DNA from: Escherichia phage vB_EcoM_ESCO32
Reading direction: 5' to 3' (one strand)
Sequence record: OM386658.1
DNA: 64,000 nucleotides
The notes under the pieces were generated by a model, which saw only the letters and a program-made list of their open reading frames with translations, did not search any database and was not told the DNA's origin. Positions 2,442 through 46,503 of the stretch are shown here, piece by piece; positions within the stretch are counted from its first letter, which is position 1; the number at the start of each line of letters is the position of its first letter. The translations under genes were made by a program, and so were the position numbers.

Positions 2442-2757
2442 TATTGCATGGCGTATGTTACAGGGTGCACCTTTTAATAAATGGGAAGAGGCTGTAGGAG
2501 AAGATCCTAAAATTGAAGAAGAATTTGATGGAGATTTGAACTGGTTCTTACAAGAAGGTCTTGATTTAAGTCGTATCTCTCCTTTCTATGATGCTGATGA
2601 ATCTTATTGCATATATGGCATTTATTTAGAAGGTGGCGAAGGAAGTATAGCTGTAGATCTTGAGCAACTAAATAAGAATGCAAAAGAAGCCTATGCACAA
2701 CTTCTTGAAAAATATAACATTGAAACGGAAACTATTATTTCTCAACACGTTTGGTAA
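2431..2757 (+). CDS. hypothetical protein
   Basis: Track ORF with GTG start 6 nt after GAGGAGG; in-frame ATG at 2455 is an alternative start. Confidence 0.5.
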   Translation: MGVDIAWRMLQGAPFNKWEEAVGEDPKIEEEFDGDLNWFLQEGLDLSRISPFYDADESYCIYGIYLEGGEGSIAVDLEQLNKNAKEAYAQLLEKYNIETETIISQHVW

Positions 2758-2770
2758 GGAGGATAGTAGA

Positions 2771-2968
2771 ATGATGCTAGATCAACTGATCAATGCTCCT
2801 CGCGTAACAGTAAGTCCAAAAACATTTGCATCACTTTTAGAAGATGCTAAAGAGGTTTATAACTTTACTGAAGAAGAGCTTCCTGTTCCTGTTGAAAAAG
2901 GTTCCAGATGGTTGTTTTATGAAGGTATTATTTTTACTGAAGGGAATAATTGGAAGGAGACTAAATGA
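2771..2968 (+). CDS. hypothetical protein
   Basis: Track ORF 2678..2968 trimmed to ATG 2771 preceded by AAGGAGG. Confidence 0.5.
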   Translation: MMLDQLINAPRVTVSPKTFASLLEDAKEVYNFTEEELPVPVEKGSRWLFYEGIIFTEGNNWKETK

Positions 2969-3954
2969 AATACTTAGTAACAGGTGGTTTAGGCTTTATT
3001 GGAAGTGCGGTAGTTCGTTTCCTGGCTAAAAATACTAAGAACGATATTTACGTTATAGATAAATGGGGTTACGCTTCAGATCCTAGAAATTTAGCAGAAA
3101 CACCTAATGTAAAGTTTTGTCGTGTTGACTTGACAAATGCGCAGGTAACTGCTAAGATTGTGGCAGATGTTAATCCAGATTATATAATGCATCTTGCAGC
3201 AGAAAGTCACGTAGATAATTCAATAGCATCACCGAGTGTTTTTATAAATTCAAATATTGTTGGGACATTTAATCTTCTAGAAGCTGTTCGTTTAATGGGA
3301 GATAAATCAAATCTTAAAATGTTCCATCATATTTCAACAGATGAAGTGTATGGTGATCTGGAAGAAGGGGATTATCCGTTTACAGAACAGAATCCTTATA
3401 AGCCAAGTAGTCCATATGCTGCATCTAAGGCAGCAAGCGATCATTTGGTAAGAGCGTGGCATCGTACTTATGGTATTCCGACAGTTATAACAAATTGTTC
3501 AAATAATTTTGGAGCATATCATCATCCAGAAAAACTAATACCTAAAACGATAACAAATATCTTGATGCATAAACCAATCCCTGTTTATGGCAATGGTCTT
3601 CAAGTAAGAGATTGGTTATACGTTGACGATCACGCAGAAGCATTACACCTAGTAGTAACTAAAGGCAAATCTGGAGAAACATATAATATTGGGAGCAGAA
3701 ACCCTAGAACTAATATTGATGTAATCTATATGATTTGTGATTATATGGATGCGGTGTATCCATCTGAAACAGATGCTTGTAGCCTCATTGAGATGGTTAC
3801 AGATAGACCTGGACATGATTTAAGATATGAAGTGAATCCTTATAAGATTGAAAAGGAATTAGGGTGGAAAGCTAAAGGCACATTTGAAGAAAAACTTTAT
3901 TCAACCATTGATTGGTATGTAGATAACAAAGAGTGGTGGGAAAATAAAGTTTAA
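2965..3954 (+). CDS. rmlB: dTDP-glucose 4,6-dehydratase
   Basis: 329 aa; N-terminal TGGLGFIGS Rossmann motif, YxxxK ([10 protein letters not shown]) catalytic motif, overall RfbB/RmlB-like. Confidence 0.9.
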
Positions 3955-31091: not shown

Positions 31092-31461
31092 ATCAGACTC
31101 CTTTATAAATTTACGTTTCATGCCACACATCATACAGCATCTTTTCATCTATTACAAGAACAGCAACATAGAAACATCATTAATGGAGGGCTTAGTATAG
31201 GAATTAGTATAGGTATTCCCTATCAATTATTCTATATATACCTATTATTTTTAACACACCCCTTTGTACATAATATAGACAAATAAATATCTATGCCACA
31301 AAAATTTTCCGGTATACCCGATTTATTTCGACACACCCTTTTTCATAAGCGTAAAGTCAATAATATCAATAACTTGCCGCAAAATACTGCTCGCTTGCGA
31401 GAGGTGCTTAACGCGATTTTCAGCGCCCCCCGATTTCTGCCGACCGTCCCCCTCAAATATC

Positions 31462-31480
31462 AATGAGAATAATTATCATT
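31462..31480. promoter_or_regulatory. Fur-box-like palindrome
   Basis: AATGAGAATAATTATCATT, followed by TTGCAT; approx. Confidence 0.4.
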
Positions 31481-31658
31481 TGCATTATCATTCAATGACT
31501 TATAAGACTTTTGATTATTTTCTGAGCAAGAAAGGTACTACTCACAACAAAACAGATAAATTCTAAGTAAATCAATGGCTTGGCAAGTCTAAACATCTAT
31601 ATACACCTTGCCAAATGAAATGATCTGGCGTGAAATAGTGCCACCCGTGGAAGATAAC

Positions 31659-31675
31659 TGATAATGATTATCATT
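31659..31675. promoter_or_regulatory. Fur-box-like palindrome (best copy)
   Basis: ctGATAATGATTATCATTtgc matches 16 of 19 positions of Fur consensus GATAATGATAATCATTATC; preceded by GATAAC hexamer. Confidence 0.45.
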
Positions 31676-32542
31676 TGCATACTTTCTGTACTATAAAACC
31701 GACTAAAAATCAAGATAATTCTGATTTATTGCGCTTTTAAGAAAGTAGGCTCAACAAATAGGGGAATACATTGCAACAAATGAGGTATGTTATAGGGGCA
31801 ATAGTATGAAAAATCATCTATTCAGATAAAATAATTTTGCGCAATAGTGGCAATATTTTTCTTGACAAGAAAGATTTCTTTGTGTTCACATAGCGCCCCC
31901 TGGAGGGTGGCGCATTATGATCATCAGTGTCATTATTCATTTCAGTGTTATTATTCACCATGTTTATTATATGCAGCTTATATTATAGCCAATGTTCTAA
32001 ACATTAGCTAATAATAACGCACCGCAACAATGTAAGGGAATACAATATACTCGTATATTGTTGCGCTTGCAATTGTTGCAAGCTACATAAGCACAAATAA
32101 TAACTATCGGTGATGGTTATTATGTGGGGTGTGTAGTTGCGTTATTATTAGCCGCCTATGTGTCCGGCATAGGCTGCTAATGATACGCTTGCGAATTATA
32201 TTTCTTGTTATAGTTATTGTATGAAATGATTACTACATGAAATGGTTATTTAGGTAATAGATAGGGAGGTAAAGATTAGATCATAAATAGATAGGATATT
32301 AATTATTTAGCAATGTTACTAACAATTTAATAGTTACTTTGTGCAACAATTCGATAGATTATAGTTATAGTTTTAAGGGTTAGATAGATTATAGTTAGCT
32401 TAGTAATGATTTACATTGATTATTGTTGTTTAATATAAGGTTATCAATAAGATAGTAACAGTATGTTATAAATAAAAGTAAGATAATTAGCTTTAATTTA
32501 GTTAGATAACTTATTATTTTATAAGTTAGATGGTCTTAAGTT

Positions 32543-32561
32543 AAGAATGATTATCATTATT
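32543..32561. promoter_or_regulatory. Fur-box-like palindrome
   Basis: AAGAATGATTATCATTATT. Confidence 0.4.
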
Positions 32562-32597
32562 GCATTATGCAGTTTATTGCATAAATAATCAGCTATA

Positions 32598-32618
32598 AAT
32601 GAAAATGATTATCACTTA
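32598..32618. promoter_or_regulatory. Fur-box-like palindrome
   Basis: AAATGAAAATGATTATCACTT; the segment AATGATTATCACTTA recurs at about 44268. Confidence 0.4.
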
Positions 32619-32821
32619 AGAGGAAAGACAAGAAAAAGGCTGTTTTTGCCAGATAGTTACATTGAGAAATTAAAAATAAGCGGTCTAAAACACGTTGTAA
32701 GCGCCTTATGATCTTCATGGTATGGTTGTTCATCTGCTCCTTGATTAGCTCGATACCGCGATCTATTCACTTTTTTCGGTGAACGTTTTTGATAGGTAAA
32801 AGCTATCATCTTTATTTAGGT

Positions 32822-32850
32822 AAAAAGAAAGGGCGCTTTGTGCGCCCTGG
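32822..32850 (-). terminator. rho-independent terminator (minus strand)
   Basis: GGGCGC-TTTGT-GCGCCC hairpin with T-run on minus strand after gene 32864..33247; same hairpin family at 34304 and 38518. Confidence 0.6.
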
Positions 32851-32863
32851 TGTGAAATGTTAT

Positions 32864-43692: not shown

Positions 43693-43959
43693 ATGACAAA
43701 TACTACTTTACACCTCATGCACTCATTAGGCTGGCAAGGCGGCACGGTGCACCAGGTAGCAAGCGCAACGGGCTTAAAGGTTGAAACCGTTCTCAACCTG
43801 GGCGATCATAAGGTGGAAGAAATAGATCATTTTGATACGTTCGCAAATGGTTATCTATGGGCTTGCAGTGGCGGCGGGGAAAGCAAGATCCCACCAGGGG
43901 CGCGGGGTGATATGTATTTTTGGTTAGGTGTCCTATCCTGGCAAGAAAACAAAAAATAA
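43693..43959 (+). CDS. hypothetical protein (lone plus-strand gene at edge of minus-strand block)
   Basis: Track ORF 43567..43959 trimmed to ATG 43693; upstream TTGCTA-18-TATTAT and small hairpin. Confidence 0.45.
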   Translation: MTNTTLHLMHSLGWQGGTVHQVASATGLKVETVLNLGDHKVEEIDHFDTFANGYLWACSGGGESKIPPGARGDMYFWLGVLSWQENKK

Positions 43960-43961
43960 TA

Positions 43962-43990
43962 TTGACAAGCCCAGGGATCGGGCTTATACT
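43962..43990 (+). promoter_or_regulatory. near-consensus sigma70 promoter with no ORF downstream
   Basis: TTGACA - 17 nt - TATACT; downstream about 200 nt are GC-rich with inverted repeats and no SD-ATG ORF. Confidence 0.5.
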
Positions 43991-44221
43991 GTCTTACATA
44001 CAGAAGAGGAAGCGCCACCCCCACGGCGTAAAGGCGGGGCTAACATACCAGGGCACTACTGGTTGGAAGGTTGATCGCCGGTAGCTCGTCTAAAATAAAT
44101 TTGTAAAGAAATGTAAAGATAAAAATAATTGCTTGCTTTTGTTGTTGGTTATGCTATTCTTATTGTATGGCGAGGGGACACGGGAGCGCGAGACAAACAC
44201 CGCCCCTGCGCGTTATTCTCT

Positions 44222-44332
44222 AAATGAGAAAATTCTCATTTGCTAATGATTCTCATTCTCTTACTGAGAATGATTATCACTTACATAGTTAAATGATAAT
44301 GATTCTCATTTACAAATGAGAATCATTATCAT
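44222..44332. promoter_or_regulatory. cluster of five Fur-box-like palindromes
   Basis: AAATGAGAAAATTCTCATTT; TAATGATTCTCATT; GAGAATGATTATCACTT; GATAATGATTCTCATTTAC (15 of 19 to Fur consensus); AATGAGAATCATTATCAT. Confidence 0.45.
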
Positions 44333-44354
44333 ACGCACACCTATAAAAACACGA

Positions 44355-44557
44355 AATTGAACTTTTCATTTTTGATTTTTCTACGGAAAAAGGCAAAAAA
44401 ACTTTAAATAAACTGGGGAATTTTTAAAAAATTGAAGTTTTCATTTTCTAAACCTGGATAGAAATACGTACAAAAACTTTAAATAATTTTGACCAAACTT
44501 GAACTTTTCATTTTCTAAATTTGTACCCAAAAATCTGTAAAAACTTTAAATAATTTT
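44355..44557. repeat. three tandem direct repeats of a 66-76 bp unit
   Basis: Each unit has TTGAA(C/G)TTTTCATTTT and AAAAACTTTAAATAA boxes separated by about 22 variable nt; approx. Confidence 0.55.
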
Positions 44558-44772
44558 GTCCTTTTTATAAAAATGATTTTACTGTTCTGTTATAAATAGT
44601 AGCTAAGAGATAATGTGTCTTTTAAAAACCAAATAGCATAGTCCAACAAACAAATTAAATAATTTATTAACAGAGTACAAAATAATACTTACTCTGGATA
44701 TATTATTCAGAGGGTGAATTTCCGTACATGAAACCCACACCCCTTTTTATAAAAATAAAAATTTTCAAAATA

Positions 44773-45324
44773 TCAGGAAATATCAGATTGTGCTTTTAGA
44801 TAAACAGCAAGGTCTGTATGCCATTTTCCTAAAAGATTTTGTCCTTTCCAACAGTCCTTATTTTCCACATCACGATCCCACATCCCCATTTTGATACCAT
44901 AAATAGAATCATAAGGGCTTGCCTCTACGAACTCCTTATCGGCGTAAGCAATAAGTTTATTTTTGAGATCTTCATTTTGTGTGTATTTAAGATACAAACC
45001 ACGCTTGACAATCTTCTCTCGTAAAGAAGTCCAGGTATCTTCATCATAATCTTTAACTAATCTGCCTAGTCGCTTATAATATGCTTGTTCTTTTTCTCCT
45101 GTATATCTTAGACCTCCGGTTAAAATAGAAGATGCAATGTTGTAATCATAAAATAAACATGCTTTTCTCCACATCATATATTGTTCCACACAAGTAAATT
45201 CAACAGAACTTGTAATAGAATTATTATACTTGGGAGCTAAAGGTTCAATAAAAGATGATAGATACCAGTTGCTAAATTCATCTTTTGCCGAGAAGAAGAA
45301 CACATACTTATCAGTAATCCGCAT
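44773..45324 (-). CDS. NADAR-domain protein (YbiA/DUF1768-like)
   Basis: 183 aa; FSNWY...VEQYMMWRKACLF...GQNLLGKWHTDL resemble YbiA/NADAR motifs FSNF...SEHYFQAQKF...N.LG; AAGGAGG SD. Confidence 0.55.
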   Translation of the reverse strand: MRITDKYVFFFSAKDEFSNWYLSSFIEPLAPKYNNSITSSVEFTCVEQYMMWRKACLFYDYNIASSILTGGLRYTGEKEQAYYKRLGRLVKDYDEDTWTSLREKIVKRGLYLKYTQNEDLKNKLIAYADKEFVEASPYDSIYGIKMGMWDRDVENKDCWKGQNLLGKWHTDLAVYLKAQSDIS

Positions 45325-46503
45325 TTACACCTCCTTACTGTATACTAACTTGCCACCATGTTGTGTAATAATTTTTTGAAGATTTTCCAAATCAGAAGCA
45401 CTTACTGTTTCTGTATGACCATCTTTCAACTCTCTTGCTGTTAAAATACCAGTTTTTAGTTTTTTCTTTATAGCTCTTTCAGCAGCCTTACACTGTTTCA
45501 CTGTACTAAAATCATATAAACAAATACGCTCCATAAAAAACATATTATGCCTATTTTGATTGTTTAATCGCCTGTCACTATCTTTAGCTATGCCAAACTT
45601 AAGAGCAACTATAATATCATTATCTTTAACAATATTAATATATAATTGCTGTTGACTATGACCTGCACATTGTGGACAACCTTGACCGTGGCTTAATAAG
45701 TTATTAACACGCCCTATCTGCTCCCCATGCACAAGACAAAGATATTTAAACTTACCTGTAGAAGATGGTTTGGTAATCCAATCTACCCAGACATACCCTT
45801 TCCCTTCTACTTCCTTTTTTACCCTATAGGTGATCTGGTCTTCTGTATACTGATAGTTCCCACAACGACACGGAATGTACCCTTGTTTAAGGCGATTTCC
45901 TTTAGAGTAAAATTTACCATCACAAACACCTGCTTGAACATATTCATCATGAGAGCAAACAGGACATTCAACCATCCAGGTAATATGCCTACATCCTTTA
46001 CCCCGTGTTCCTGTGTTAGTGAAGATAGTGCCTTCCTTAAATTTCCCTGTAGAAAAGAAACCTGCAATATGTTGATCGTCGGACATTGTTTGTTTCTCCC
46101 TCCTACATTGTGGACAACCTCGACCGACTTTAAATTGATCAATTGCTGTACTTTGCCATCTATTCCCACAATGGCACAACAAATCAAGTTTTGTGTAACA
46201 CCCTTTCCATTCTCCAACGTACCCTAATACTTGATACTCCTTCTTCTGTGCTATCTCTTCCAAGATCGGTAATTCTGCTTCCCATGTTAACGGCTTATTC
46301 CTTGCACATGTCGGACAACCACGTCCATTCTTAAAATCATTAATGCTCGTGGTGTTCCATTCTCCATGATCAGAGCAAGATAGCTTAAGTTTAGTCTTGT
46401 TCCCTTTCCATTCTCCCGTCCATCCTAAGATTTGGATTTGCTTACTCTCTGCTATTGGTTGACACTCTTCTTTATATTGTTCCCATGATTTTGGTGCTAC
46501 CAT
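45325..46503 (-). CDS. putative nuclease: triplicated Zn-ribbon repeats plus C-terminal GIY-YIG-like (T5orf172-type) domain
   Basis: 392 aa; three repeats of G(W/Y)xGEWKG..TKLxLxC...GRGCPxC; C-terminal LYINIVKDNDIIVALKFGIAKDSDRRL resembles the T5orf172 pattern. Confidence 0.5.
   Translation of the reverse strand: MVAPKSWEQYKEECQPIAESKQIQILGWTGEWKGNKTKLKLSCSDHGEWNTTSINDFKNGRGCPTCARNKPLTWEAELPILEEIAQKKEYQVLGYVGEWKGCYTKLDLLCHCGNRWQSTAIDQFKVGRGCPQCRREKQTMSDDQHIAGFFSTGKFKEGTIFTNTGTRGKGCRHITWMVECPVCSHDEYVQAGVCDGKFYSKGNRLKQGYIPCRCGNYQYTEDQITYRVKKEVEGKGYVWVDWITKPSSTGKFKYLCLVHGEQIGRVNNLLSHGQGCPQCAGHSQQQLYINIVKDNDIIVALKFGIAKDSDRRLNNQNRHNMFFMERICLYDFSTVKQCKAAERAIKKKLKTGILTARELKDGHTETVSASDLENLQKIITQHGGKLVYSKEV

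What the first reader, a model, noticed from the sequence alone, without database searches (positions are those of the whole stretch)
43960..44220. Consensus sigma70 promoter firing into a structured, ORF-less segment: candidate non-coding RNA
TTGACA - 17 nt - TATACT at about 43962-43990 is the best promoter match in the window, yet the about 230 nt downstream contain no SD-ATG ORF. They are unusually GC-rich for this genome and full of inverted repeats (GCGCCACCCCCACGGCG...GGCGGGGC; GAGGGGACACGGGAGCGCGAGACAAACACCGCCCCTGCGCG). The locus lies between two convergent genes and immediately upstream of the palindrome cluster.
Basis: seen in the sequence. Interest (0 to 1): 0.7.

Follow-up and report, generated by a model that had tools for sequence, protein, structure and literature searches.

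The report
Conserved pseudoknotted small RNA gene in phages
The promoter is real and drives a roughly 90-nt pseudoknotted RNA that is conserved, with compensating base changes, in more than 200 large virulent phages of enterobacteria and Aeromonas, matches no described RNA family, and has an unknown function.

Summary
The window comes from a phi92-like coliphage (Justusliebigvirus). TTGACA-17-TATACT at 43962-43990 is real, but it is one of 17 near-consensus promoters in the window, not the best.

The roughly 90 nt that follow it (core 43997-44084) are the only part of this intergenic gap that stays 82-86% identical in distant genera: Mydovirus, Certrevirus, Seunavirus, Henunavirus and Aeromonas Plateaulakevirus.

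I collected 41 distinct copies. Forty of them have a sigma-70-type promoter ending 1-5 nt before the element.

The copies support a fold of four helices: P1, a pseudoknot, P2 and a variable hairpin P3.
- 89.5% of cells are paired, against 22-45% in slid controls.
- 10 of 16 pairs show compensatory change.
- The pseudoknot, which was not used to build the alignment, covaries independently.

An invariant strand, AAGGUKGAUCGCCGG-UAG, sits unpaired in a junction.

There was no Rfam, tRNA, bacterial-genome or plasmid match. In Aeromonas phages the element stands alone, with its own promoter and terminator.

The second GC-rich hairpin (44167-44216) is only weakly supported. It may be the terminator.

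Verdict: this is a real, previously undescribed phage small-RNA gene. The function is inferred, not shown. A trans-acting RNA that binds a partner is most likely. An origin-associated transcript is the main rival.

The parts
43962..43990 (+). Promoter P1: TTGACA (43962-43967), 17-nt spacer, TATACT (43985-43990). The predicted start is 43996-43998.
   Evidence: 11/12 match. A promoter at the equivalent position is present in 40 of 41 homologs, with the -10 hexamer ending 1-5 nt before the model start.
43967..43985 (+). GC hairpin inside the promoter spacer (AAGCCC-AGGGATC-GGGCTT). It is the probable terminator of the upstream + strand gene and overlaps the promoter.
   Evidence: It is listed as terminator-like on the - strand. 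A GC hairpin of different sequence occupies the spacer in most lineages but not in Aeromonas phages, which have no upstream + strand gene.
43996..44097 (+). RNA1, a conserved structured small-RNA element. These are the covariance-model match coordinates. The functional core is 43997-44084.
   Evidence: The model match scores 99.6 bits, E = 6e-27. The element is 82-86% identical in distant genera whose flanks do not align.
44013..44028 (+). Helix P1: CGCC (44013-44016) pairs with GGCG (44025-44028). Its loop supplies the 5' strand of the pseudoknot.
   Evidence: 97% of cells are paired, and two pairs show compensatory change (CG to AU or GU in Aeromonas copies).
44020..44039 (+). Pseudoknot: loop CCC(A) at 44020-44023 pairs with (G)GGG at 44036-44039.
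   Evidence: This was an independent test because the pseudoknot was not in the model. Pair 44022:44037 is CG in 28 copies, AU in 12 and other in 1. The covariation score is 0.227 against 0.064 shuffled, with 0 of 500 shuffles reaching it.
44040..44084 (+). Helix P2: CUA (44040-44042) pairs with UAG (44082-44084). It encloses P3 and the junction strand.
   Evidence: 98% of cells are paired, but the helix is almost invariant, so it is barely testable: 3 G-U changes and 1 compensatory change.
44044..44065 (+). Hairpin P3, with variable length and sequence. Some relatives have GNRA loops.
   Evidence: All 5 tested pairs show compensatory changes, for example AU in 30 copies against GC in 11, and CG in 35 against GC in 5. 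Insert length varies over 4, 6, 8, 10, 11, 12, 13 and 14 nt.
44066..44081 (+). Invariant unpaired junction strand G-AAGGUUGAUCGCCGG. Only 44072 varies (G or U). With the UAG that follows, this is the family signature.
   Evidence: Invariant columns appear in the alignments. No pairing partner was found within the RNA. A candidate partner, the P1 3' strand, is excluded because the Aeromonas copies change P1 but not this strand.
44098..44130 (+). AU-rich tail carrying the semi-conserved motif TTTGTAAAGAAATGTAAAGA (44100-44119).
   Evidence: See the alignment. Related motifs (ATTGAAAATA, AATGAAAATAA) occur at the same place in Erwinia-type and Aeromonas copies. GC is 24%.
44133..44160 (+). Putative second promoter P2: TTGCTT, 16-nt spacer, TATTCT. 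It is weak here (7/12) and better in other genera (TTGCAA-17-TATATT).
   Evidence: Its position is conserved in the alignment. It falls below the threshold of the scan. This is an inference.
44167..44216 (+). Second GC-rich imperfect hairpin ('RNA2') followed by UUAUUCUCU. It is a possible terminator of the P1 and P2 transcripts. The loop sequence GAGACAAACACCG is conserved.
   Evidence: Each genome folds to a two-tier hairpin. The outer helix is 78% paired, and one pair is G-U in 10 of 13 sequences, which favours the + strand. RNAalifold finds no consensus (-0.7 kcal/mol). Pairing is not above the shuffles. The result is inconclusive.
44223..44335 (.). Context: a cluster of Fur-box-like palindromes with half-site TGAGAAT(G/C)ATT.
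   Evidence: There is a 19-bp perfect inverted repeat at 44293-44311 / 44314-44332. Ten overlapping 19-mers lie within 3-5 mismatches of the E. coli Fur consensus. The motif is conserved in other genera and in Aeromonas phages.
44354..44574 (.). Context: three direct repeats of about 67-75 nt in AT-rich DNA, which look like iterons.
   Evidence: In the equivalent region, CR3 and Mydovirus carry repeats with TCGATCGAGACCC, and an Aeromonas phage has single similar GATCGAGACC / TCGAGATCTC motifs.

Best explanation
Window 43962-44097 is a self-contained gene for a small structured RNA. Host sigma-70 RNA polymerase starts at about 43997 from a near-consensus early-type promoter.

The first roughly 88 nt fold into a compact double-pseudoknot-like scaffold.
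- P1 is a hairpin whose loop pairs with a downstream G-run to form the pseudoknot.
- That G-run continues directly into helix P2.
- P2 closes around a variable hairpin (P3) and a 16-nt junction strand.

The junction strand, together with the UAG of P2 (AAGGUKGAUCGCCGG-UAG), is invariant across phage genera and is predicted to be unpaired. An AU-rich tail follows. Termination is at a downstream hairpin: 44167-44216 in this window, and a canonical terminator in Aeromonas phages.

Most likely mode of action (inferred): the RNA works in trans, early in infection. The pseudoknot scaffold would present the invariant strand to a conserved macromolecular partner, which could be a host or phage protein or an RNA. 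In that reading it acts as a ribonucleoprotein component or a decoy/regulator, not as a messenger or a cis leader.

What is shown: conservation, a positionally conserved promoter, the covarying fold, and independence from neighbouring genes.
What is inferred: that it is expressed, that it acts in trans, and what it binds.
For: - The conserved block begins at the predicted start site in distant genera, while the flanks are unalignable (alignment).
- There are 41 distinct copies scoring 43.5-111 bits. The covariance model separates them cleanly from chance matches to the 17-mer (20.6 bits or less). Among 75 loci that hold the 12-mer, none scores E <= 0.1.
- 40 of 41 copies have a promoter at the same distance even though the hexamers differ.
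- Fold statistics: 89.5% of cells paired against 22-45% for slid controls; 10 of 16 pairs with compensatory changes; covariation 0.221 against 0.078, with 0 of 500 shuffles reaching it.
- The pseudoknot was tested independently of the alignment model: 0.227 against 0.064, 0 of 500.
- G-U pairs occur on the + strand reading.
- In Aeromonas Plateaulakevirus phages the element lies alone between minus-strand genes. It has its own TTGCTT-17-TATAAT promoter and a hairpin plus T-run terminator about 140 nt downstream. It sits 1.9 kb from the palindrome/iteron locus.
- Raoultella phage Ro1 has an HNH endonuclease gene inserted right after GGTA, and it keeps a second complete copy with its own promoter.
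- Coding is unlikely. 24 of 41 copies have no ATG, and the P3 indels are not multiples of three.
Against: - No transcript data were available, so expression is inferred from promoters only.
- No partner was found. Complementarity of the invariant strand does not exceed shuffled-query background against the window, against 50 kb more of phi92, or against an E. coli rRNA operon.
- In the window and most enteric relatives there is no canonical intrinsic terminator right after the core, so the RNA's 3' end is uncertain.
- Near-universal presence and fixed synteny next to an origin-like region would fit a core cis or replication role as well as a trans role.
- Minimum-free-energy stability is not above composition-matched shuffles.
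- P2 is almost invariant, so it is not really tested.
Confidence: 0.5

Rival explanations
1. RNA1 is an origin-associated transcript. It is made to stay hybridised to its template, or to be processed after GGUAG. The GC-rich invariant strand would anchor an R-loop at the edge of an AT-rich unwinding element, priming or activating phage DNA replication. Known parallels are ColE1 RNA II and the T4 and T7 promoter-plus-unwinding-element origins. The pseudoknot would keep the 5' part off the DNA or recruit a replication protein.
For: - The core is followed at once by a 72-nt stretch of 24% GC.
- After that come tandem same-direction promoters, operator-like palindromes and iteron-like direct repeats.
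- In CR3 and Mydovirus these repeats are GATC-rich, carrying TCGATCGAGACCC; an Aeromonas phage has single similar motifs.
- Conservation stops abruptly after GGUAG, even between near-identical phages.
- The element is near-universal and syntenic in this phage group.
- The origin of rV5-like phages is unknown (PMC3606486).
Against: - In Aeromonas phages RNA1 is followed by a terminator and lies 1.9 kb and five genes away from the palindrome/iteron locus. A different transcript occupies its place there.
- Phage R-loop origins known from T4 are not sequence-conserved in this way (my knowledge).
- There is no match in 72,556 plasmids.
- The cumulative GC-skew turning points of the window lie at about 18 kb and 49 kb, not at 44 kb.
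Confidence: 0.22
2. RNA1 is a cis-acting transcription element. The nascent RNA would modify the polymerase that makes it, as the HK022 put RNA does in processive antitermination. Alternatively, the unit exists to send transcription against the convergent minus-strand operon, as transcriptional interference or an antisense 3' end.
For: - The RNA lies immediately downstream of a strong promoter.
- Only weak terminator-like hairpins follow it in enteric phages.
- Three tandem rightward promoters face a leftward operon.
Against: - There is no same-strand gene downstream for more than 5 kb that could benefit.
- In Aeromonas phages a good terminator follows the RNA.
- Interference needs no conserved pseudoknot or invariant strand.
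- The fold differs from put RNA, which is two stem-loops with no pseudoknot (my knowledge).
Confidence: 0.08
3. RNA1 is a catalytic or ligand-binding RNA. It could be a small self-cleaving ribozyme, or an aptamer without an expression platform that sequesters a small molecule, for example a defence signal.
For: The conservation pattern is typical of ribozymes and aptamers: a compact pseudoknotted fold, invariant nucleotides concentrated in junctions, covarying stems and a variable peripheral hairpin. Small ribozymes are common in phages (my knowledge).
Against: - No Rfam ribozyme or riboswitch model matches, even at E <= 10, in six variants of the RNA.
- The strand order differs from pistol and HDV-like folds (my comparison, from memory).
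- A run of 17 contiguous invariant bases is unusual for these classes.
Confidence: 0.08
4. This is not a functional RNA. The conserved block would be a DNA-level site for protein binding or homing-endonuclease recognition, or simply the 3' UTR and terminator region of the upstream gene.
For: - The invariant 17-mer contains GATC and CCGG.
- It is the insertion point of an HNH endonuclease gene in Ro1.
- A hairpin that probably terminates the upstream gene overlaps the promoter.
Against: - Compensatory changes that keep four helices, including a pseudoknot, are not expected for a duplex DNA site.
- The promoter is positionally conserved.
- The element exists without any upstream same-strand gene in Aeromonas phages.
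- The upstream small proteins of different genera are not detectably homologous, while the RNA is.
Confidence: 0.07

Closest known systems
H-type pseudoknot RNAs with an A-rich third loop (preQ1-II/III and SAM-II riboswitch aptamers, gene 32 mRNA pseudoknot of T-even phages)
   Same: A short GC hairpin whose loop pairs with a downstream strand. An A-rich linker (AAAAGGC or CUAAAC) lies between the two 3' strands. Invariant bases are concentrated around the pseudoknot. As in the T4 gene 32 leader, an AU-rich unstructured stretch follows.
   Different: No Rfam model matches. There is no downstream ORF or expression platform. There is an additional P2/P3 domain and a long invariant junction strand. 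The pseudoknot's 3' strand runs straight into another helix.
Phage-encoded small RNAs with their own promoter (P1/P7 C4 antisense RNA, lambda OOP RNA, PhiTE pseudo-ToxI)
   Same: A short non-coding transcription unit in a phage early or regulatory region, driven by a host-type promoter. PhiTE, a relative of this phage group, is documented to express a pseudoknot-forming ncRNA (PMC3475682).
   Different: There is no sequence or model similarity. RNA1 is single-copy rather than a tandem 36-nt repeat like ToxI. It is not antisense to any gene. No target complementarity was found.
Origin transcripts (ColE1 RNA II; T4 oriF/oriG and T7 primary-origin transcripts)
   Same: A promoter firing into an AT-rich unwinding stretch next to repeats. 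In ColE1 the transcript is structured, and its fold decides hybrid formation.
   Different: There is no homology. No plasmid match was found. RNA1 is separable from the repeat region in Aeromonas phages. No replication data exist for this phage group.
Candidate structured RNAs predicted in bulk from viral genomes (Fremin, Bhatt & Kyrpides 2023, PMC10690425)
   Same: It is the same kind of object: a covarying intergenic motif in phage genomes without an assigned function.
   Different: I could not check whether this motif is among the 10,006 predictions, because the supplementary data are not held. Nothing in the searchable literature names this sequence.

Membership tests
Any Rfam 15 family | Covariance-model match at or near the family's gathering score | tested here: not met
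   There were 0 gathering-score hits in the whole window. No hit at E <= 10 overlaps 43990-44220. None overlaps the element in five divergent copies.
tRNA / tmRNA | Cloverleaf or tmRNA architecture detectable by ARAGORN | tested here: not met
   ARAGORN found 0 genes in the window and 0 in L004, where a public record annotates tRNAs over this locus.
Riboswitch (pseudoknot aptamer classes) | Aptamer followed by an expression platform that controls a downstream same-strand gene | tested here: not met
   There is no same-strand ORF downstream. In Aeromonas phages a terminator and then a convergent gene follow.
Riboswitch (pseudoknot aptamer classes) | Ligand binding | not testable with these tools
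   This needs in-line probing or ITC.
Type III antitoxin RNA (ToxI-like), as mimicked by phage PhiTE | Tandem direct repeats of about 36-45 nt, each forming a pseudoknot and processed by the toxin | tested here: not met
   There is a single copy per genome. No tandem repeat lies within 43960-44220. The only direct repeats start at 44232 and do not resemble the element.
Hfq-type base-pairing sRNA | Intrinsic terminator hairpin with a U-tail at the 3' end | tested here: inconclusive
   This is met in Aeromonas copies, with an 8-bp stem plus AATTGTTTG. In the window the first candidate is the imperfect hairpin at 44167-44216 plus UUAUUCUCU, about 120 nt after the core.
Hfq-type base-pairing sRNA | Conserved single-stranded seed complementary to target mRNAs | tested here: inconclusive
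   An invariant unpaired strand exists. No complementarity above shuffled background was found in 114 kb of phage sequence or in the rRNA operon. Host mRNAs could not be scanned.
ColE1 RNA II-type or phage R-loop origin transcript | Transcript forms a persistent hybrid at an origin and primes DNA synthesis | not testable with these tools
   Only the context could be examined: an AT-rich stretch, palindromes and iteron-like repeats downstream. The origin of this phage group is unmapped.
Small self-cleaving ribozymes (pistol, twister, hatchet, HDV-like, hammerhead) | Match to the family consensus and strand topology | tested here: not met
   There were no Rfam hits. The strand order is P1 5', pseudoknot 5', P1 3', pseudoknot 3', P2 5', P3, junction, P2 3'. 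This differs from pistol and HDV-like orders as I recall them.
Small self-cleaving ribozymes (pistol, twister, hatchet, HDV-like, hammerhead) | Self-cleavage activity | not testable with these tools
   This needs an in vitro transcription and cleavage assay.
Small protein-coding gene | Conserved start codon and reading frame | tested here: not met
   24 of 41 copies have no ATG. P3 length varies over 4, 6, 8, 10, 11, 12, 13 and 14 nt, which breaks any frame.

The most novel reading that the evidence does not exclude
RNA1 may be the founding member of a functionally new class of phage RNA. In that case its invariant strand and double-pseudoknot core would do something not yet described for phage RNAs. 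One possibility is priming or licensing replication for the whole rV5/phi92-like phage group. Another is a catalytic or ligand/defence-factor-sequestering RNA made in the first minutes of infection. The evidence here excludes membership of every described family tested, but it does not reveal the activity.
Probability: 0.3. Interest if true: 0.8.

Novelty: new variant of a known kind. Interest (0 to 1): 0.62.

Why it matters
rV5-like, phAPEC8-like and phi92-like phages (Vequintavirinae and Stephanstirmvirinae) are broad-host-range viruses. They are widely isolated and used as therapeutic candidates against E. coli, Klebsiella, Salmonella, Cronobacter and plant pathogens. Their early programme and replication origin are essentially unmapped.

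RNA1 is better conserved than the neighbouring proteins and is maintained from enterobacterial phages to Aeromonas phages. Such an RNA is likely to perform a core step of infection. It gives a small, mutable and precisely delimited handle: pseudoknot mutants with compensatory rescue, and a 17-nt invariant strand usable for pull-downs.

Practical consequences:
- The region is unannotated, or annotated as spurious 'hypothetical proteins' or tRNAs, in public records, and this can now be corrected.
- The family supplies a new covariance model for phage genome annotation.
- The adjoining Fur-box-like arrays and iteron-like repeats point to an unstudied regulatory or origin hub.

Tried and rejected
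- **Rfam searches.** Gathering thresholds on the whole window, then E <= 10 on 43900-44800 and on five divergent copies. Nothing overlaps RNA1. The weak hits are microRNA-like matches to the palindromes.
- **ARAGORN**. No tRNA or tmRNA was found. The tRNA-Ile/Met annotation over this locus in OY978796 is not reproducible.
- **Host or plasmid origin.** No match in 5,426 E. coli genomes or in 72,556 plasmids. In one genome from each of 185,579 bacterial species, the pattern GGCT-N15-45-17-mer gave 19 hits. All look like chance hits in coding DNA except L054, which is a phi92-like phage contig binned into a MAG.
- **L051 (Pyrinomonadales MAG).** It looked tempting: a promoter, with the 17-mer in the loop of a 10-bp hairpin. 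It scores only 15.5 bits, E = 0.33, and I rejected it.
- **Relaxed pattern GGCT-N20-50-GATCGCCGGTAG on IMG/VR.** This returned more than 120 loci. None of the 75 new loci listed passes the model.
- **A closing helix between the 5' leader and the 3' tail.** I rejected it as a universal feature. The tail differs between near-identical phi92-like phages while the leader is unchanged, and the possible registers differ between lineages.
- **Pairing of the junction CGCC with the P1 GGCG strand.** Rejected, because Aeromonas copies change P1 to GGAC/GUCU and keep the junction.
- **Target search by duplex energy.** I scanned the window, 50 kb more of phi92, and the E. coli rrnH operon. All results fall within the shuffled-query range.
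- **Resemblances noticed by eye.** These were the 16S 3' end (GGAUCACC), a Shine-Dalgarno sequence, the SRP RNA GGAA loop, a DnaA box, boxA, CsrA sites and a tRNA 5' half. None survives the variation seen among homologs.
- **Consensus fold of the second hairpin.** RNAalifold gives -0.7 kcal/mol. Pair counts are not above shuffles.
- **Homology of the upstream small ORFs across genera.** None was detected. The Aeromonas gene next to RNA1 shows no convincing homology to the NADAR gene.
- **Literature.** No paper holds the sequence. I found no transcriptome or origin study of this phage group.
Full report
**Source and setting.** The 1.2 kb around the finding is 95-98% identical to phi92-like coliphages (Justusliebigvirus, Stephanstirmvirinae). 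In phi92 the region is the gap between gp224 and gp223. In the window the finding lies in an 810-nt gap with no convincing ORF. On one side is a small + strand gene (43693-43959, PHROG 19316, no Pfam match). On the other is a convergent - strand NADAR-domain gene (44773-45324). To the left lies a run of small - strand early genes, each with its own near-consensus promoter.

**Check of the observation.** TTGACA-17-TATACT is at 43962-43990 and matches 11 of 12 positions. It is not the best promoter in the window. Two sites match 12/12 and 17 sites reach 11/12. Promoter-like matches as a class are at chance level: 32 found against 27.8 expected. The downstream sequence has no ATG ORF. It is strongly GC-rich for this genome: 55% and 73% against 37%, and only 0.2% of 100-nt windows reach 55%. 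The inverted repeats fold no better than composition-matched shuffles, with z = +0.50, -0.23 and +0.23. From this one sequence alone, the case for structure would therefore be weak.

**Comparative evidence.** A sensitive search with 43940-44230 found 234 phage records. In the distant genera only query positions 57/58-180 align, at 82-86% identity. These genera are Mydovirus, Certrevirus and Seunavirus, infecting Klebsiella, Raoultella, Cronobacter, Pectobacterium, Enterobacter and Salmonella. The aligned stretch corresponds to window 43996/43997-44119. It begins at the predicted transcription start, while the flanks do not align at all (alignment). Pattern scans with the most conserved 17-mer brought in further copies from IMG/VR and from metagenomes. 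They also brought in copies from Aeromonas phages of the genus Plateaulakevirus.

**Specificity of the model.** I built a covariance model from 36 sequences. It finds 41 distinct copies: 40 at 61-111 bits, and a second, diverged copy in Raoultella phage Ro1 at 43.5 bits. The window copy, 43996-44097, scores 99.6 bits with E = 6e-27. Chance matches to the 17-mer score 20.6 bits or less. I also ran the model over 75 viral loci that contain the 12-mer GATCGCCGGTAG preceded by GGCT. None reached E <= 0.1. There is no copy in E. coli genomes, in plasmids, or in one genome from each of 185,579 bacterial species, apart from one phage contig. The family is phage-specific.

**Structure.** The model-guided alignment of the 41 copies supports four helices. 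In window coordinates they are:
- **P1:** 44013-44016 pairs with 44025-44028.
- **Pseudoknot:** loop residues 44020-44023 pair with 44036-44039.
- **P2:** 44040-44042 pairs with 44082-44084.
- **P3:** a hairpin at 44044-44065.

Overall, 89.5% of cells pair, against 22-45% when the partners are slid by 1-3 columns. Ten of 16 pairs show changes on both sides. The covariation score is 0.221 against 0.078 for shuffles, with none of 500 shuffles reaching it.

The pseudoknot was not part of the model that made the alignment, so it is an independent test. Its central pair is C-G in 28 copies, A-U in 12 and unpaired in one. The flanking pair takes A-U, U-A and G-C in the non-enteric lineages. Its score is 0.227 against 0.064, with 0 of 500 shuffles reaching it. 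P1 changes from CGCC/GGCG to GGAC/GUCU or AGAC/GUCU in Aeromonas copies. In two Aeromonas copies it also tolerates a 47-nt insertion. P3 varies in length and sequence, with GNRA loops in some copies, and every tested pair shows compensatory change. P2 is almost invariant and therefore barely tested.

The strand between P3 and P2, G-AAGGUKGAUCGCCGG (44066-44081), is invariant except for one position, and so is the UAG that follows. It has no partner within the RNA. The few G-U pairs fit the + strand.

**Evidence that it is a gene.**
- Forty of the 41 copies carry a sigma-70-type promoter (9/12 or better) whose -10 hexamer ends 1-5 nt before the model start. The hexamers themselves differ (TTGACA, TTGCAA, TTGACG, TTGCTT).
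- In most lineages the promoter spacer holds a GC hairpin of varying sequence. This is best read as the terminator of the upstream + strand gene, overlapping the promoter. RNA1 is therefore not a 3' UTR of that gene.
- In Aeromonas phages there is no upstream + strand gene at all. RNA1 lies antisense between two - strand genes. It has a TTGCTT-17-TATAAT promoter, an AU-rich linker and an 8-bp hairpin plus T-run about 140 nt from the start.
- In Raoultella phage Ro1 an HNH endonuclease gene is inserted directly after GGTA of the signature. A second complete, diverged copy with its own promoter follows it. This suggests that the conserved site is a homing target and that an intact copy is retained.
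- Coding is unlikely. 24 of 41 copies have no ATG, and the P3 indels break any frame.

After the core comes a 24% GC stretch with a semi-conserved motif, TTTGTAAAGAnnTGTAAAGA. Related forms occur in Erwinia-type and Aeromonas copies. A second promoter is conserved in position. It is weak here (TTGCTT-16-TATTCT at 44133-44160) and better in other genera.

The second GC-rich repeat (44167-44216) folds in each genome into a two-tier hairpin with a conserved loop, GAGACAAACACCG. Pairing is not above the shuffles, at 65.9% against 64.8%. The outer helix is 78% paired, and one of its pairs is G-U in 10 of 13 sequences, which favours the + strand. I regard it as a possible terminator for the P1 and P2 transcripts. 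Its status as a structured RNA in its own right is inconclusive.

**Wider locus.** Downstream lie palindromes with the half-site TGAGAAT(G/C)ATT. Ten overlapping 19-mers match the E. coli Fur consensus at 14-16 of 19 positions. A further promoter follows in other genera, and then iteron-like direct repeats. The palindrome motif also occurs in an Aeromonas phage, together with single GATC-containing motifs that resemble the CR3 and Mydovirus iterons. There they lie 1.9 kb from RNA1, behind a different GC-rich transcript. RNA1 is therefore a module separable from this locus.

**Comparison with known families.** No Rfam family matches at any threshold tried, in six variants of the RNA. There is no tRNA or tmRNA. 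RNA1 lacks the defining features of several classes:
- It is not a riboswitch, because there is no downstream gene.
- It is not a ToxI-like antitoxin, because there are no tandem repeats.
- It is not a coding gene.
- Its strand order differs from pistol and HDV-like ribozymes, as far as I recall them.

The searchable literature holds neither the sequence nor a transcriptome or origin study of this phage group. A bulk catalogue of 10,006 viral candidate RNAs could not be checked, because its data are not held.

**Mechanism.** Four things are shown: a phage-specific conserved element, a positionally conserved promoter, a covarying pseudoknotted fold, and independence from neighbouring genes.

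The rest is inferred. I consider a trans-acting early RNA most likely, with a weight of about 0.5. In this reading the scaffold presents the invariant strand to a conserved partner. The stand-alone promoter-core-linker-terminator unit in Aeromonas phages and the tolerated relocation and duplication favour it. However, no partner was found. Complementarity of the invariant strand stays within shuffled-query background against the window, 50 kb more of phi92, and an E. coli rRNA operon.

The main rival, at about 0.22, is an origin-associated R-loop or primer transcript. The AT-rich stretch, tandem promoters, palindromes, iterons and near-universal synteny all suggest it. The Aeromonas arrangement weakens it. 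The lesser rivals are a cis-acting polymerase modifier or interference unit, a ribozyme or aptamer, and a purely DNA-level site.

**Verdict.** It is a real and apparently undescribed small-RNA gene family of a large and practically important phage group. The function remains to be determined, and clean experiments are available to determine it.

Noticed in passing
window 44223-44335; also 31460, 31660, 32543, 32598, 56372, 17417, 6225; L039:5024-5072: There are arrays of palindromes close to the E. coli Fur box (GATAATGATAATCATTATC). They match 14-16 of 19 positions in the cluster next to the finding, and 17 of 19 at 31660. The motif AATGAGAATGATTATCATT is conserved at the equivalent place in Mydovirus, Certrevirus, Seunavirus, Henunavirus and an Aeromonas phage. 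Several copies lie in a second large non-coding stretch of the window (about 31150-32860). They could be Fur-dependent control sites, Fur titration sites, or operators of a phage regulator.
   Followed up: partly
window 44354-44574; L006:2847-3040; L004:2830-3000; L039:5150-5260: There are three direct repeats of about 67-75 nt in AT-rich DNA. In CR3 and Mydovirus the corresponding repeats carry GATC-rich TCGATCGAGACCC units, and an Aeromonas phage has similar single motifs. These look like iterons and may mark a replication origin, which is unmapped in this phage group.
   Followed up: partly
L009:2500-3341 (Raoultella phage Ro1): An HNH endonuclease gene (2617-3210) is inserted exactly after GGTA of the RNA's invariant strand. 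A second, diverged RNA1 copy with its own promoter follows it, and the signature of that copy is heavily mutated. This looks like a homing event with an immune target copy. Another ORF interrupts the second hairpin in L018.
   Followed up: partly
window 43967-43985 and equivalents in L004-L091: The 17-18-nt spacer of the RNA1 promoter holds a GC-rich hairpin in almost every enteric lineage, with a different sequence each time. In Mydovirus and Seunavirus the -35 hexamer lies in the loop of the hairpin. This appears to be an overlapping terminator and promoter.
   Followed up: partly
window 44773-46503 (- strand): The gene next to the locus encodes a NADAR domain protein (E = 3e-36), a family linked to reversal of ADP-ribosylation. 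The next gene combines four CapR-homology repeats with a T5orf172 endonuclease domain. Both are possible anti-defence or mobile functions.
   Followed up: no
L039:4880-5020 (Aeromonas phage 2L372X): At the position that RNA1 occupies in enteric phages, this phage has a TTGCAC-17-TATACT promoter. It fires into a different GC- and purine-rich segment that contains a (GA)n run. The 3' part of that segment resembles the second hairpin of the window (CCTGCCTGACGTTCGCCAAACGAGAATG).
   Followed up: no
public records MG065639 and OY978796: Five 'Campylobacter phage' records match this coliphage locus; the one listed, A150 (MG065639), is 99% identical, so the hosts are probably mislabelled. OY978796 annotates tRNA-Ile and tRNA-Met over the second hairpin and palindrome region, and ARAGORN does not reproduce these. 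Several records call short 'hypothetical proteins' across RNA1.
   Followed up: partly
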